From UHGV virus genome UHGV-0254305: 10,104 nt of DNA; one strand, 5' to 3'. The notes under the pieces are model-generated. The model made no database searches and had not been told where the DNA came from. It worked only from the letters and a program-made list of their open reading frames with translations. Shown here piece after piece: positions 893-10,104 of the stretch. This stretch comes from a virus. The position numbers and the translations under genes are program-made. The first letter of the stretch is position 1, and each line of letters opens with the position of its first letter.

Positions 893-1329
893 GCAGCCCG
901 ATCTCCCCATCTCGCTTTCCACTCCAGAGCCAGTCTCGCTTCGTCTGACCACTTAACGCCACGCTCTGTGCCGAATGCCTGTATAAGCTCTAATAGCTCC
1001 GCAAATTCGCCTACACGCATCCTGCTGGTTGACTGGCCTATTACCACAAAGCCATTCCCGGCAAGGTTAGGAACAACATCCTGCTGCTTTAATGCTGCGG
1101 TAAACACACACTTCCAGCTTTCTGCATCCAGCCAGCGACCATGCCATTCAACCTGACGAGAGACGTCACCTAAGCAGGCCCATAGCTTCCTGTTTTGGTC
1201 TAAGCTGCGGTTGCGTTCCTGAATGGTTACTACGATTGGTTTGGTTGGGTCTGGAAGGATTTGCTGTACTGCGTGAATAGCGTTTTGCTGATGTGCTGGA
1301 GATCGAATTTCAAAGGTTAGTTTTTTCAT
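889..1329 (-). CDS. ninB: NinB recombination protein (146 aa)
   Basis: Translation MKKLTFEIRSPAHQQNAIHAVQQILPDPTKPIVVTIQERNRSLDQNRKLWACLGDV... matches lambda NinB from memory. ATG at 1327-1329 (minus) is preceded by a GAGGGA ribosome-binding site; the ORF-track start at 1347 is a TTG six codons upstream. Confidence 0.9.
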   Translation of the reverse strand: MKKLTFEIRSPAHQQNAIHAVQQILPDPTKPIVVTIQERNRSLDQNRKLWACLGDVSRQVEWHGRWLDAESWKCVFTAALKQQDVVPNLAGNGFVVIGQSTSRMRVGEFAELLELIQAFGTERGVKWSDEARLALEWKARWGDRAA

Positions 1330-1341
1330 GACTTCCCTCTC

Positions 1342-1378
1342 CCCCAAATAAAAAGGCCTGCGATTACCAGCAGGCCTG
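1342..1378 (-). terminator. tR2: Intrinsic terminator, tR2-like (between ren and ninB)
   Basis: On the minus strand: stem AGGCCTGC / GCAGGCCT (1354-1377) followed by TTTTTATTT. This is the position where lambda has tR2. Confidence 0.6.
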
Positions 1379-1402
1379 TTATTAGCTCAGTAATGTAGAT
1401 GG

Positions 1403-1693
1403 TCATCTTTTAACTCCATATACCGCCAATACCCGTTTCATCGCGGCACTCTGGCGACACTCCTTAAAAATCAGGTTCGTGCTCATCTTTCCTTCCCGTT
1501 CTTCCCTGGTAGCAAACCGGTAATACACCGTTCGCCAGACCTTACCTTCGATAACCAGAAGACCTGCCCGTGCCATTTTAGCCGCGGCCTGATTTATGCT
1601 GGTTACTGTTGCGCCTGTTAGCGCGGCAACGTCCGGCGCACAGAAGCTATTATGCGTCCCCAGGTAATGAATAATTGCCTCTTTGCCCGTCAT
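1403..1693 (-). CDS. ren: Ren protein (96 aa)
   Basis: Translation MTGKEAIIHYLGTHNSFCAPDVAALTGATVTSINQAAAKMARAGLLVIEGKVWRTVYYRFATREEREG... matches lambda Ren from memory. ATGA overlap with the P stop. Confidence 0.9.
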   Translation of the reverse strand: MTGKEAIIHYLGTHNSFCAPDVAALTGATVTSINQAAAKMARAGLLVIEGKVWRTVYYRFATREEREGKMSTNLIFKECRQSAAMKRVLAVYGVKR

Positions 1694-3732: not shown

Positions 3733-5087
<1,355 letters not shown>

Positions 5088-7990: not shown

Positions 7991-8776
7991 ATGAGTACAG
8001 CACTCGCAACGCTGGCTGGGAAGCTGGCTGAACGAGTCGGCATGGATTCTGTCGACCCACAGGAACTGATCACCACTCTTCGCCAGACGGCATTTAAAGG
8101 TGATGCCAGCGATGCGCAGTTCATCGCATTGCTGATCGTCGCCAACCAGTACGGTCTTAATCCGTGGACGAAAGAAATTTACGCCTTCCCTGATAAGCAG
8201 AACGGCATCGTTCCGGTGGTGGGCGTTGATGGCTGGTCCCGCATCATCAACGAAAACCAGCAGTTTGACGGCATGGACTTTGAACAGGACAACGAATCCT
8301 GCACATGCCGGATTTACCGCAAAGACCGCAATCATCCGATCTGCGTTACCGAGTGGATGGATGAATGCCGCCGCGAACCATTCAAAACCCGCGAAGGCAG
8401 AGAAATCACGGGGCCGTGGCAGTCGCATCCCAAACGGATGTTACGGCATAAAGCCATGATTCAGTGTGCCCGTCTCGCCTTCGGATTTGCTGGTATCTAT
8501 GACAAGGATGAAGCCGAGCGCATTGTCGAAAATACCGCATACACTGCAGAACGTCAGCCGGAACGCGACATCACTCCGGTTAACGATGAAACCATGCAGG
8601 AGATTAACACTCTGCTGATCGCCCTGGATAAAACATGGGATGACGACTTATTGCCGCTCTGTTCCCAGATATTTCGCCGCGACATTCGCGCATCGTCAGA
8701 ACTGACACAGGCCGAAGCAGTGAAAGCTCTTGGATTCCTGAAACAGAAAGCCACTGAGCAGAAGGTGGCAGCATGA
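7991..8776 (+). CDS. bet: Bet (Red-beta single-strand annealing protein, 261 aa)
   Basis: Translation [99 protein letters not shown]... matches lambda Beta from memory. Confidence 0.97.
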
Positions 8777-9453
8777 CACCGGACATTATCCTGCAGCGTA
8801 CCGGGATCGACGTGAGAGCTGTCGAACAGGGGGATGATGCATGGCACAAATTACGGCTCGGCGTCATCACCGCTTCAGAAGTTCACAACGTGATAGCAAA
8901 GCCCCGATCAGGAAAGAAGTGGCCTGACATGAAAATGTCCTACTTCCACACCCTGCTAGCTGAGGTTTGCACCGGTGTGGCTCCGGAAGTTAACGCTAAA
9001 GCGCTGGCCTGGGGAAAACAGTACGAGAACGACGCCAGAACCCTGTTTGAGTTCACTTCCGGCGTAAATGTTATTGAATCCCCGATCATCTATCGCGACG
9101 AAAGTATGCGCACCGCCTGCTCTCCCGATGGTTTATGCAGTGACGGCAATGGCCTTGAGCTGAAATGCCCGTTTACCTCCCGGGATTTCATGAAATTCCG
9201 GCTCGGTGGTTTCGAGGCCATAAAGTCGGCTTACATGGCCCAGGTGCAGTACAGCATGTGGGTGACGCGAAAAGATGCCTGGTACTTTGCCAACTATGAC
9301 CCGCGTATGAAGCGTGAAGGACTGCATTATGTCGTGGTCGAACGGGATGAAAAATACATGGCTGGTTTTGACGAAATGGTGCCAGAGTTCATCGAAAAAA
9401 TGGACGAGGCACTGGCTGAAATTGGTTTTGTATTTGGGGAGCAATGGCGATGA
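8773..9453 (+). CDS. exo: Exo (Red-alpha 5'-3' exonuclease, 226 aa)
   Basis: Translation [92 protein letters not shown]... matches lambda exonuclease from memory. ATGA overlap with the bet stop. Confidence 0.97.
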
Positions 9454-9632
9454 AACATCCTCACGATAATATCCGCGTAGGCACGATCACTTTCGTCTAC
9501 TCCGTTACGAAGCGAGGCTGGGTATTTCCCGGCCTTTCTGTTATCCGAAATCCCCTGAAAGCACAGCGGCTGGCTGAGGAGATAAATAATAAACGGGGAG
9601 CTGTATGCACAAAGCATCTCCCGTTGAGTTAA
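9450..9632 (+). CDS. Lambda orf60a-like hypothetical protein (60 aa)
   Basis: ATG at 9450 overlaps the exo stop as ATGA and lies 8 nt downstream of a GGGGAG ribosome-binding site. Translation [60 protein letters not shown]. The ORF-track start at 9444 is too close to the ribosome-binding site. Confidence 0.8.
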
Positions 9633-9796
9633 GAACGAGTATCGAGATGGCACATAGCCTCGCTCAAATTGGAGTCAGGTTTGTGCCAATACCAGTAGAA
9701 ACAGACGAAGAATTTCATACGTTAGCCGCATCCCTTTCACAAAAGCTGGAAATGATGGTGGCGAAAGCAGAAGCAGATGAGAGAGACCAGGTATGA
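9605..9796 (+). CDS. Lambda orf63-like hypothetical protein (63 aa)
   Basis: ATG at 9605 with a GGGGAG ribosome-binding site at 9594-9599. Translation [63 protein letters not shown]. Confidence 0.8.
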   Translation: MHKASPVELRTSIEMAHSLAQIGVRFVPIPVETDEEFHTLAASLSQKLEMMVAKAEADERDQV

Positions 9797-9806
9797 CAAC
9801 CACGGA

Positions 9807-9992
9807 ATGCATTTTTCTGGCAGCGGGCTTCATATTCTGTGTGCTTATGCTTGCCGACATGGGACTTGTTCAATGACACCTCAGCAGGAAAACGCCCTTC
9901 GCAGCATTGCCCGTCAGGCTAATTCTGAAATCAAAAAAGCCAGACAGCAGTTTCCGGATAAAAACGTCGATGACATTTGCCGTAGCGGGTAA
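9807..9992 (+). CDS. Lambda orf61-like hypothetical protein (61 aa); alternative organisation possible
   Basis: ATG at 9807 gives MHFSGSGLHILCAYACRHGTCSMTPQQENALRSIARQANSEIKKARQQFPDKNVDDICRSG (61 aa, matching the name of lambda orf61). The ribosome-binding site is weak, and an overlapping ATGA-coupled 27-aa ORF exists (see findings). Confidence 0.6.
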   Translation: MHFSGSGLHILCAYACRHGTCSMTPQQENALRSIARQANSEIKKARQQFPDKNVDDICRSG

Positions 9993-10104
9993 TGACTCCA
10001 ACTTATTGATAGTGTTTTATGTTCAGATAATGCCCGATGACTTTGTCATGCAGCTCCACCGATTTTGAGAACGACAGCGACTTCCGTCCCAGCCGTGCCA
10101 GGTG

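What the first reader, a model, noticed from the sequence alone, without database searches (positions are those of the whole stretch)
9788..9992. Chain of ATGA-coupled small ORFs overlapping orf61, including a 27-aa hydrophobic peptide
The orf63 stop (9794-9796) overlaps an ATG at 9793 that opens a 27-aa ORF, MTTTECIFLAAGFIFCVLMLADMGLVQ (9793..9876), which looks like a single transmembrane helix. Its stop (9874-9876) in turn overlaps an ATG at 9873 that is in frame with the C-terminal 39 aa of orf61 (MTPQQENALRSIARQ...). The conventional 61-aa orf61 start at 9807 has a weak ribosome-binding site. Two successive ATGA couplings suggest the real translated units may be orf63, then a small membrane peptide, then a 39-aa protein. 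Small hydrophobic peptides in phage early operons are often host-targeting toxins or membrane modulators.
Basis: seen in the sequence. Interest (0 to 1): 0.45.

Follow-up and report, generated by a model that had tools for sequence, protein, structure and literature searches.

The report
Hidden 27-codon membrane-peptide gene inside orf61
A 27-codon reading frame for a greasy, membrane-type peptide sits between two known early genes of lambda-like phages, overlaps the misannotated "orf61", and evolves like a real unannotated gene present in over half of complete E. coli genomes.

Summary
The sequence facts hold: ATG 9793 overlaps the orf63 stop (ATGA), opens a 27-aa ORF (MTTTECIFLAAGFIFCVLMLADMGLVQ), and its stop overlaps ATG 9873 (ATGA).

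Three corrections:
- Window 9988-10104 is an IS1 end, so the "39-aa protein" is the IS1-truncated form of a 71-aa gene.
- That gene starts at 9873. RefSeq, about 13 remote homologs of 69-74 aa, and mosaic phages that lack orf63 and p27 all agree.
- Lambda's classical orf61 starts at the 9777 equivalent and is an A7-versus-A6 frameshift product.

Across 316 related loci the 27-aa frame carries about twice the expected synonymous changes (12 syn/6 nonsyn/1 stop among variants seen in 3 or more loci, P about 0.001). The orf61-extension frame looks unconstrained. Both RTGA overlaps are almost invariant. Where a Dam methylase replaces orf63, homology resumes exactly at the p27 ATG, behind a strong GGGAGG ribosome-binding site. 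A distant clade has an unrelated 36-aa transmembrane ORF at the same position.

The region is in 3142 of 5426 complete E. coli genomes and RefSeq leaves it unannotated. The published lambda "orf61" frameshift mutation (delta-C9844) lies inside p27. Translation and function are untested.

Verdict: probably a real, new small membrane-peptide gene.

The parts
9605..9796 (+). orf63 (DUF1382), the upstream gene whose TGA stop (9794-9796) overlaps the p27 start
   Evidence: ORF list. Pfam DUF1382 at E=3e-31. Annotated as such in RefSeq phages and E. coli genomes.
9779..9785 (+). GAGAGAG, a moderate Shine-Dalgarno-like stretch 7-14 nt upstream of ATG 9793
   Evidence: SD:anti-SD duplex of -5.6 kcal/mol. 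In the Dam-upstream arrangement it is replaced by GGGAGG at -10.3 kcal/mol.
9793..9796 (+). ATGA overlap 1: p27 start and orf63 stop
   Evidence: ATGA is present in all 286 orf63-type loci despite variation just upstream. It is also kept where Dam replaces orf63.
9793..9876 (+). p27: 27-codon ORF for a hydrophobic single-helix peptide, MTTTECIFLAAGFIFCVLMLADMGLVQ; proposed unannotated gene
   Evidence: The frame is intact in 315 of 316 loci, with 3 of these carrying Q27stop. 269 of 316 encode the identical peptide. There are 14 synonymous changes against 8.7 expected (12 against 5.7 for variants in 3 or more loci, P=0.001). GRAVY is 1.62 and the KD19 maximum is 2.33.
9807..9872 (+). In-frame 'N-terminal extension' of orf61 (ATG 9807; also ATG 9777 upstream); probably not coding in this frame
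   Evidence: 9 synonymous against 21 nonsynonymous changes, as expected without constraint (P=0.38-0.84). Frequent polymorphisms are all nonsynonymous here. The majority allele T at 9804 makes a TGA in this frame. The extension is absent from mosaic class C and from all remote homologs. AF2 pLDDT is 46-53 for residues 1-20.
9873..9876 (+). ATGA overlap 2: p27 stop and start of the 71-aa gene (GTGA in 34 loci, TAATGA in 3)
   Evidence: RTGA is kept in 314 of 315 loci.
9873..9987 (+). First 38 codons of the 71-aa 'true orf61' gene (MTPQQENALRSIARQ...), truncated here
   Evidence: RefSeq starts the CDS at this ATG in ev243 and in E. coli genomes. The family of remote homologs of 69-74 aa aligns from residue 1.
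9933..9938 (+). A6 run; lambda itself has A7 here, which frameshifts the 71-aa gene and creates the classical 61-aa 'orf61'
   Evidence: Alignment; ORF lists; insertion counted in 14 loci.
9988..10104 (-). End of an IS1 element inserted into the 71-aa gene; supplies the GGT TAA that ends the window's ORF at 9992
   Evidence: Loss of homology at 9987/9988. The translation [33 protein letters not shown] matches Pfam DDE_Tnp_IS1 at E=1.9e-14. There are about 76,000 matching places in E. coli genomes, annotated as IS1 transposase.

Best explanation
The 84 bases 9793-9876 are an unannotated gene, called p27 here. It encodes a 27-residue, very hydrophobic peptide with no lysine or arginine and one predicted membrane-spanning helix.

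p27 lies in the N-dependent early leftward (pL) operon of lambda-like and Shiga-toxin phages, between orf63 and a 71-codon gene that is the real 'orf61'. A ribosome finishing orf63 (or Dam, in another arrangement) terminates on the TGA of ATGA and re-initiates on the overlapping ATG, helped by a Shine-Dalgarno-like stretch. It translates p27, terminates on the second ATGA, and re-initiates on the weakly signalled start of the 71-aa gene. p27 therefore makes a peptide and also relays ribosomes to its downstream partner.

The annotated N-terminal extensions of orf61 (starts at 9777 and 9807) are not coding in their own frame. In this window IS1 has destroyed the 71-aa gene but left p27 intact.

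Shown: the ORF, both overlaps, frame-specific constraint, and the mosaic boundaries. Inferred: translation, coupling, membrane insertion, and any action on the host envelope or on the 71-aa partner.
For: 1. Frame-specific purifying selection. In 316 loci, positions 9797-9872 carry 30 distinct changes. In the p27 frame they are 14 synonymous, 15 nonsynonymous and 1 stop, with codon positions 7/8/15. Expected synonymous is 8.7, P=0.012. For variants seen in 3 or more loci the counts are 12/6/1, P=0.001. Synonymous variants are commoner than nonsynonymous ones (Mann-Whitney P=0.0056). The strength matches the C-terminal half of the neighbouring 71-aa gene.

2. The orf61-extension frame shows no excess (P=0.38-0.84). 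All frequent polymorphisms are nonsynonymous in it.

3. ATGA is kept at the start in 286 of 286 loci. RTGA is kept at the end in 314 of 315.

4. Mosaic junctions coincide with the gene boundaries. In about 30 loci a Dam methylase replaces orf63 and homology resumes exactly at the p27 ATG. There the ATG has a GGGAGG site (-10.3 kcal/mol) and again overlaps the upstream stop. In 14 loci a 250-aa gene replaces orf63 plus p27, and the 71-aa gene keeps its start with its own GAGG.

5. About 13 remote homologs of the 71-aa protein (31-63% identity, 69-74 aa; one is called at 89 aa) all begin where ATG 9873 is.

6. A distant clade (L430-L432) has an unrelated 36-aa single-helix ORF at the same place. 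Its length is kept despite roughly 55% DNA identity.

7. Hydrophobicity at this level arises in 0.14% of shuffles.

8. No RNA structure (z=+1.76), no Rfam hit and no terminator explains the conservation.

9. The published lambda 'orf61' frameshift (deletion of C at window 9844, PMC4195576 Table 1; mapped) lies in p27 codon 18 and had a phenotype.
Against: - There is no direct evidence of translation. The lambda ribosome-profiling paper (Liu 2013) could not be read. A review says it added only 7-aa and 31-aa ORFs in this block.
- Diversity is low (at least 90% DNA identity), so the test rests on 19-30 distinct changes. With all singletons included P is only 0.012.
- The antisense frame that shares third positions also shows an excess (P=0.004-0.07).
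- The peptide has no flanking positive charges, which is unusual for membrane peptides.
- Three other clades of the 71-aa family, and E. coli class C, have no small ORF upstream. p27 is therefore dispensable for the partner.
- No homolog of p27 exists outside this module.
- The Dam-type and orf63-type contexts may simply share a recent ancestor.
Confidence: 0.68

Rival explanations
1. p27 is translated only as a relay. Ribosomes must pass from orf63 or Dam to the weakly signalled start at 9873, so the frame must stay open and end in RTGA. The peptide itself has no function and is degraded.
For: Both overlaps are nearly invariant. The 71-aa start has a weak Shine-Dalgarno match of -4.0 kcal/mol when p27 is present, but its own GAGG when p27 is absent. 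The 71-aa gene works without p27 in other arrangements.
Against: A pure relay needs only an open frame. It does not predict a two-fold synonymous excess, rarity of nonsynonymous variants, 269 of 316 identical peptides, or extreme hydrophobicity. A direct ATGA junction without any spacer exists in relatives and would be simpler.
Confidence: 0.12
2. The long Orf61 used in the literature (93 aa from ATG 9807, or 103 aa from 9777) is the real product. The 27-aa frame is an untranslated by-product of its sequence.
For: The frame from 9807 is open in every haplotype. Many gene callers predict the 93-aa form; P0002 has 1695 member sequences. A review models an N-terminal helix (PMC8614690).
Against: There are 9 synonymous against 21 nonsynonymous changes in that frame, and every frequent polymorphism changes its amino acid. 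The majority allele at 9804 puts a stop before 9807 and kills the 103-aa form. No properly spaced Shine-Dalgarno precedes 9807. Mosaic class C and all remote homologs lack the extension. pLDDT is 46-53 for residues 1-20. RefSeq starts at 9873.
Confidence: 0.07
3. Nothing here is selected. The spacer is conserved only because all copies are recent descendants of one module, and the third-position pattern is chance or a mutational bias.
For: All copies are at least 90% identical. With all singletons included P is 0.012. The frame stays open in 46% of shuffles. The established gene orf63 shows no significant synonymous excess in the same test, so the test is noisy.
Against: The excess grows when likely sequencing errors are removed (P=0.0018 and 0.0010) and survives conditioning on the full mutation spectrum. 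The frequency-spectrum difference is independent of it (P=0.0056). Mosaic junctions coincide with the ORF ends, a strong Shine-Dalgarno site appears in the Dam context, and an analogous 36-aa ORF occurs in a distant clade.
Confidence: 0.1
4. The constraint comes from an antisense gene, the - strand ORF 9860..9675 of 61 aa, whose third codon positions coincide with those of p27.
For: 10-11 synonymous changes against 4.8-7.5 expected in that frame (P=0.004-0.07).
Against: The same mirror effect appears antisense to the 71-aa gene (P=0.0008), so it is a by-product of sense coding. Only the 22 residues that mirror p27 are shared between contexts: 61 aa with orf63, 44 aa with Dam, and 40-105 aa elsewhere. 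The ATG is lost in 4 loci. There is no constraint where it overlaps orf63 and no promoter-like site nearby on the - strand.
Confidence: 0.03

Closest known systems
Lambda orf61 / Phi24B Orf61 (vb_24B_7c), exo-xis region ORFs studied by the Wegrzyn and Donaldson groups
   Same: Same locus. p27 lies entirely inside the annotated orf61 (lambda J02459 30928..31008). The published delta-orf61 deletions and the delta-C frameshift remove or disrupt p27.
   Different: p27 is in another reading frame and is hydrophobic. The folded part of Orf61 is the 71-aa unit that starts after p27 (review: fold modelled on aa 24-93; here helices at 25-86). Lambda's 61-aa product is a frameshift artefact.
Small single-helix inner-membrane proteins of E. 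coli that modulate larger membrane proteins (AcrZ, MgrB, KdpF, MgtS, PmrR, CydX); comparison from my own knowledge
   Same: Fewer than 50 residues, one hydrophobic helix, missed by annotation and by tryptic proteomics, and often found only by conservation or ribosome profiling.
   Different: No sequence similarity (one search gives only a sub-threshold MtrF match). p27 has no flanking Lys or Arg, is phage-borne, and has no known target.
Type I toxin peptides (Hok, Ldr, Ibs, TisB, ShoB, DinQ, ZorO); comparison from my own knowledge
   Same: Hydrophobic peptides of 18-50 aa, often in prophages, that act on the inner membrane.
   Different: Those have their own promoter, a structured leader and an antisense RNA. 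p27 is an internal cistron coupled by ATGA. It has no - strand promoter-like site, and the local RNA is less structured than shuffles.
Translationally coupled overlapping cistrons (ATGA/TGATG junctions, e.g. lambda bet-exo, trp operon); established mechanism
   Same: Stop and start overlap by four bases at both ends of p27. The same style is used at bet/exo (8773-8776) and exo/orf60a (9450-9453) in this window.
   Different: Here a whole mini-cistron sits between two coupled genes. Relatives have the direct junction without it (L429).
NinA, the 26-aa hydrophobic ORF after ren in lambdoid phages
   Same: A second ATGA-coupled small hydrophobic ORF in this same window (1406..1326, - strand). It occurs in 413 phage records, and a few listed records annotate NinA there.
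   Different: NinA overlaps the tR2 terminator hairpin and T-run, which can by themselves explain both its conservation and its hydrophobic codons. p27 overlaps no such element.
ZapA (PF05164), the name PGAP gives the 71-aa partner
   Same: Weak local similarity of residues 3-35 to ZapA (E=0.014).
   Different: The score of 16.1 is below the 23.8 cutoff. There is no NCBIfam hit and no significant PDB fold match for the three-helix model. The name is not supported.

Membership tests
Genuine protein-coding small ORF | Reading frame kept open across relatives | tested here: met
   315 of 316 loci are intact. Three carry Q27stop, which re-creates TAATGA. One low-coverage contig has a deletion. On its own this is weak, because 46% of shuffles stay open.
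Genuine protein-coding small ORF | Excess of synonymous over nonsynonymous change in this frame and not in the overlapping frames | tested here: met
   14 synonymous against 8.7 expected (P=0.012). 12 against 5.7 for variants in 3 or more loci (P=0.001). Other sense frames give P>0.37. The antisense mirror is weaker.
Genuine protein-coding small ORF | Usable start signal | tested here: met
   The ATG overlaps the upstream stop. The SD-like GAGAGAG gives -5.6 kcal/mol, and GGGAGG gives -10.3 in the Dam context.
Genuine protein-coding small ORF | Direct evidence of translation or of the peptide | not testable with these tools
   Liu 2013 is not held. The peptide string occurs in no held paper or searched supplement. 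The peptide has no Lys or Arg, so tryptic proteomics would miss it.
Single-pass membrane peptide | Hydrophobic stretch of about 19-21 residues | tested here: met
   Residues 6-26 give KD19=2.33 and KD21=2.42. It ranks first of 94 small ORFs. Observed substitutions are mostly hydrophobic to hydrophobic: F8L, G12V, A10V, A21V/S, V26A, I14V.
Single-pass membrane peptide | Positive-inside flanking charges and demonstrated insertion | tested here: not met
   There is no Lys or Arg. The only charged residues are E5 and D22. Insertion itself is not testable here.
Type I toxin-antitoxin toxin | Own promoter, structured leader and antisense RNA regulator | tested here: not met
   It is an internal cistron of the pL operon. 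No promoter-like site lies on either strand within 9454-10104. The RNA is less stable than shuffles and there is no Rfam family.
Type I toxin-antitoxin toxin | Toxicity on expression | not testable with these tools
   Needs inducible expression.
Orf61 N-terminal region (93/103-aa forms) | Protein-level constraint on 9807-9872 in the orf61 frame, and presence in homologs | tested here: not met
   9 synonymous against 21 nonsynonymous (P=0.38-0.84). Absent in class C and in the remote homologs. Low pLDDT.
Termination-reinitiation coupled cistrons | Conserved stop/start overlap at both junctions | tested here: met
   ATGA in 286 of 286 loci and RTGA in 314 of 315. The Dam context also uses ATGA.
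Termination-reinitiation coupled cistrons | Downstream translation depends on upstream translation | not testable with these tools
   Needs reporter fusions with upstream stop mutants.
ZapA (PF05164), for the 71-aa partner | Score above the Pfam gathering threshold, and a ZapA-like fold | tested here: not met
   16.1 bits against a cutoff of 23.8. No PDB fold hit with E<1.
IS1 | IS1 transposase C-terminus abutting the terminal repeat | tested here: met
   DDE_Tnp_IS1 at E=1.9e-14, profile positions 99-131 of 131. Multicopy in E. coli genomes with IS1 annotation.

The most novel reading that the evidence does not exclude
p27 and the 71-aa three-helix protein are a two-part module: a membrane peptide plus a soluble or peripheral partner. 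This is supported by an unrelated 36-aa membrane ORF at the same position in a distant clade.

In this reading p27 either tethers or controls the partner at the inner membrane, or it acts as a membrane-insertion-sensing upstream cistron (MifM/SecM-like) that sets translation of the partner. The module would be the unknown agent behind the 'orf61' pro-lytic phenotypes. It would also explain the exo-xis-dependent induction of envelope-stress genes: degP and htpX are 8-fold and 5-fold lower with Phi24B delta-exo-xis (PMC10789677 Table 4).
Probability: 0.12. Interest if true: 0.75.

Novelty: new member of a known kind. Interest (0 to 1): 0.55.

Why it matters
Lambda is the reference phage, and the exo-xis block is carried by Shiga-toxin phages, where it influences induction and therefore toxin release.

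If p27 is real, there are three consequences:
- A conserved gene has been overlooked in lambda and in prophages of 58% of complete E. coli genomes.
- 'orf61' has been studied with the wrong boundaries, at 61 or 93 aa instead of 27 aa plus 71 aa.
- The published delta-orf61 and orf61-frameshift phenotypes cannot be assigned to Orf61, because both lesions hit p27. In lambda itself the 71-aa gene is already frameshifted, which makes p27 the more likely active element there.

The finding also gives a concrete candidate for a membrane-directed activity in the early operon, and simple mutations that would test it.

Tried and rejected
tblastn against phages found nothing outside this module.
- AlphaFold on p27 is not possible; the minimum is 30 aa.
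- The genome-contig scan with orf63 returned mostly lambda DNA contamination in unrelated genomes and added no diversity.
- The profile of remote 71-aa homologs was too divergent for the search for related loci. The P0078 scan returned only the E. coli module.
- Liu 2013 could not be read by PMC id or by DOI.
- The peptide string occurs in no held paper and in neither of two candidate supplements.
- RNA-element explanations are rejected. The fold is less stable than shuffles, and there is no Rfam hit and no terminator.
- The antisense-gene explanation is rejected.
- The phage 434 'putative membrane protein' annotation turned out to be the 71-aa unit, not p27.
- The fold search gave no significant match, so neither the ZapA label nor the homeodomain-like proposal could be confirmed.
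- My first selection script timed out and a second crashed at the region edges.

Full report
**What is in the window.** The + strand of the right end of the window is the early leftward (pL) operon of a lambda-like prophage. It carries gam, bet (7991..8776), exo (8773..9453), orf60a/DUF1317 and orf63/DUF1382 (9605..9796). The coordinates in the finding are exact. ATG 9793 overlaps the orf63 TGA (ATGA) and opens MTTTECIFLAAGFIFCVLMLADMGLVQ. The TGA of that ORF at 9874-9876 overlaps ATG 9873.

**Three corrections to the picture.**

First, homology to intact phages stops at 9987. From 9988 the sequence is the end of IS1. The - strand encodes the last 33 residues of the IS1 transposase (Pfam DDE_Tnp_IS1, E=1.9e-14) and matches tens of thousands of IS1 copies. 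The stop at 9990-9992 therefore belongs to IS1, and both the '39-aa protein' and the window's 61-aa ORF are truncation products.

Second, in the 100%-identical phage ev243 the frame runs on to give a 71-aa protein from ATG 9873: MTPQQENALRSIARQANSEIKKARQQFPDKNVDDICRSVLKKHRETVTLMGFTPTHLSLAIGMLNGVFKER. RefSeq annotates exactly that CDS in ev243 and in E. coli genomes. RefSeq leaves the 76 nt between orf63 and this CDS empty.

Third, lambda itself has A7 where this window has A6 (9933-9938). The classical 61-aa 'orf61' starts at the equivalent of 9777 and ends prematurely because of that extra A. A published review had already noted that lambda Orf61 looks truncated and that only residues 24-93 of the Phi24B form fold (PMC8614690). 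Residue 23 of that form is the Met at 9873.

**Where the downstream gene starts.** Three independent lines place the start at 9873.
- In 14 loci (for example L003) orf63 and the 80-nt spacer are replaced by an unrelated 250-aa gene. The 71-aa gene keeps the same ATG and has its own GAGG site.
- An exhaustive HMMER search found a family of remote homologs at 31-63% identity. About 13 of them are 69-74 aa long (one is called at 89 aa), and all align from their first residues.
- An AlphaFold model of the 93-aa form has pLDDT 46-53 for residues 1-20 and 74-91 for the three-helix core at 25-86.

The PGAP name 'ZapA' for this protein is not supported. The Pfam score of 16.1 is below the 23.8 cutoff, there is no NCBIfam hit, and there is no PDB fold hit with E<1.

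**Is the 27-aa frame a gene?** I collected 346 related loci from IMG/VR, metagenomes and GenBank. They were anchored on sequence outside the ORF so as not to bias the sample, and 316 cover p27.

The frame is intact in 315 of them, and 269 encode the identical peptide. Positions 9797-9872 carry 30 distinct changes. In the p27 frame these are 14 synonymous, 15 nonsynonymous and 1 stop (Q27stop, which re-creates TAATGA), at codon positions 7/8/15. Simulation conditioned on the observed mutation spectrum expects 8.7 synonymous (P=0.012). Restricting to variants seen in at least 2 or at least 3 loci removes likely assembly errors and gives P=0.0018 and P=0.0010, the latter from 12 syn/6 nonsyn/1 stop. 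Synonymous variants are also more frequent than nonsynonymous ones (P=0.0056).

In the orf61-extension frame the same changes are 9 synonymous and 21 nonsynonymous (P=0.38-0.84). Every common polymorphism changes its amino acid in that frame. The majority allele T at 9804 creates a TGA that kills the 103-aa form.

The signal in p27 is as strong as in the C-terminal half of the 71-aa gene, which serves as a positive control. An antisense ORF that shares third positions shows a weaker mirror signal. The same mirror appears opposite the 71-aa gene. That antisense ORF keeps only the 22 residues mirroring p27 between contexts, and it loses its ATG in some loci.

**Boundaries and signals.** ATGA at the start is kept in 286 of 286 orf63-type loci, although the bases just upstream vary. 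RTGA at the end is kept in 314 of 315.

In about 30 loci a Dam methylase (Pfam Dam, E=1e-53) replaces orf63. Homology resumes exactly at the p27 ATG, the Dam stop again overlaps it as ATGA, and a GGGAGG site (-10.3 kcal/mol) precedes it.

ATG 9807 has no properly placed Shine-Dalgarno match (-3.9 kcal/mol). ATG 9873 has a weak one (-4.0 kcal/mol), which is consistent with dependence on coupling.

The local RNA folds less stably than shuffles (z=+1.76). No Rfam family, terminator or promoter explains the conservation.

**The peptide.** GRAVY is 1.62 and the 19-residue Kyte-Doolittle maximum is 2.33. It is the most hydrophobic of the 94 small ORFs in the window. An ORF that is both open and this hydrophobic arises in 0.14% of shuffles, although openness alone arises in 46%. 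Observed substitutions are mostly hydrophobic for hydrophobic. The peptide has no Lys or Arg, so tryptic proteomics would not see it, and it lacks the usual positive flank. tblastn finds it only in this module: 175 phage records at 92.6% identity or more.

**Distribution and an analogue.** The 97-nt region occurs in 3142 of 5426 complete E. coli genomes, at 4256 places.

Among five distant clades of the 71-aa family, one (L430-L432) has an unrelated 36-aa single-helix ORF immediately upstream of the homolog. In L431 and L432 it is ATGA-coupled to the preceding gene. Its length is kept at roughly 55% DNA identity. Three other clades have a direct junction with the upstream gene.

In L429 that junction (GGAGGCCGCATGACACC) resembles the Dam-p27 junction (GGGAGGCTGCATGACAACC). 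In addition, p27 and the 71-aa gene both begin ATGACA. This suggests, by inference only, that the 80 nt of p27 were inserted into an older direct junction.

**Link to published genetics.** p27 lies wholly inside annotated orf61. The delta-orf61 mutants replaced the whole ORF (PMC6213356).

The lambda 'orf61 frameshift' that delayed phage development deleted the C in CTTCATATTCTGTGTG[C]TTATGC (PMC4195576 Table 1). That base is window 9844, the first base of p27 codon 18. Those phenotypes therefore cannot be assigned to Orf61. In lambda the 71-aa gene is already broken by the A7 frameshift.

Phi24B delta-exo-xis lowers degP (log2 -3.0) and htpX (-2.4) relative to wild type (PMC10789677 Table 4). 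This would fit a membrane-perturbing product, but the deletion removes many genes.

I found no mention of this ORF in the searchable literature. That is not proof that it has never been reported.

**Verdict.** p27 is probably (about 0.7) a real, unannotated, translationally coupled small membrane-peptide gene. Its function is unknown. The likeliest roles are insertion into the inner membrane, with an effect on the host envelope or on the 71-aa partner, together with relay of ribosomes to that partner. It is a new member of a known kind (small membrane proteins, coupled cistrons) in a very well studied phage.

Noticed in passing
window 9988-10104: An IS1 end is inserted after codon 38 of the 71-aa gene. 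The exact junction was not found as a contiguous match in any of 5426 complete E. coli genomes, so this prophage copy is an uncommon disrupted allele.
   Followed up: yes
window 9933-9938; L002 (lambda imm21) about 1994-2000: Lambda has A7 where wild relatives have A6, so the classical 61-aa orf61 is a frameshift product. Proteins P0021 and P0025 look like A7 plus a compensating indel a few codons later, which suggests selection to restore the C-terminal part.
   Followed up: partly
window 1326-1406, - strand: A second ATGA-coupled hydrophobic mini-ORF (26 aa, MTIYITELITGLLVIAGLFIWGRGKS) follows the ren-like ORF 1403..1693. It occurs in 413 phage records, and a few listed records annotate NinA or tR2 there. 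It overlaps the tR2 hairpin and T-run (CAGGCCTGCTGGTAATCGCAGGCCTTTTTATTT), which may explain its conservation.
   Followed up: partly
L001 2146-2241; L104/L105 952-1041 (downstream of the 71-aa gene in intact phages): A 29-31-aa ORF (MNMKSKIIRELQAPFLLFAFTLKRINQQFRD) starts at a GTGA overlap with the 71-aa stop, or at ATG 6 nt later. It lies before orf73. It is annotated in some records and is probably the 31-aa 'orf2313' that a review attributes to lambda ribosome profiling.
   Followed up: no
window 9877-9960: The first 28 codons of the 71-aa gene show no synonymous excess (7 synonymous, 19 nonsynonymous; codon positions 3/12/11). The C-terminal part is strongly constrained (21 synonymous, 15 nonsynonymous, P=0.0005). 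Mosaic variants also differ mainly in this N-terminal part.
   Followed up: partly
window 9611-9792 (orf63): orf63 has a solved NMR structure, yet it shows no significant synonymous excess in the same test (15 synonymous against 13.6 expected). Either the test has low power here or constraint on orf63 is relaxed.
   Followed up: no
window 9514-9536, + strand: A terminator-like hairpin plus T-rich tail (GAGGCTGGGTATTTCCCGGCCTT TCTGTTATCC) lies inside orf60a. From memory this is about where lambda tL3 lies. Transcripts reaching p27 would then need N antitermination.
   Followed up: no
L430 1061-1171; L431/L432 1057-1167: Distant lambdoid contigs carry a 36-aa single-helix ORF (MTSHTKLEKRMLWVIFAMACLIFLSVSGLLIKTFFC / MKMYTNLEKRAVWVIGALAIIAFWAIVIAVSVVGFD) directly upstream of a homolog of the 71-aa protein. 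It is unrelated to p27 in sequence.
   Followed up: partly
L201 about 2540-2600 compared with L348 600-704: In a few Dam-type loci (L201, L283) the long frame that ends at the p27 ATGA is cut short; in L201 Dam instead stops 40 nt before p27. The cause, possibly a length change in a C-run, was not checked. In L201 a 14-codon mini-ORF (MAFGSRILARREAA) then bridges to the p27 ATGA.
   Followed up: partly
Genome-contig loci L005-L023: Lambda-identical orf63 regions turn up in assemblies labelled Shewanella, Bradyrhizobium, Paenibacillus, Kitasatospora and others. This is almost certainly lambda DNA contamination of those assemblies.
   Followed up: no
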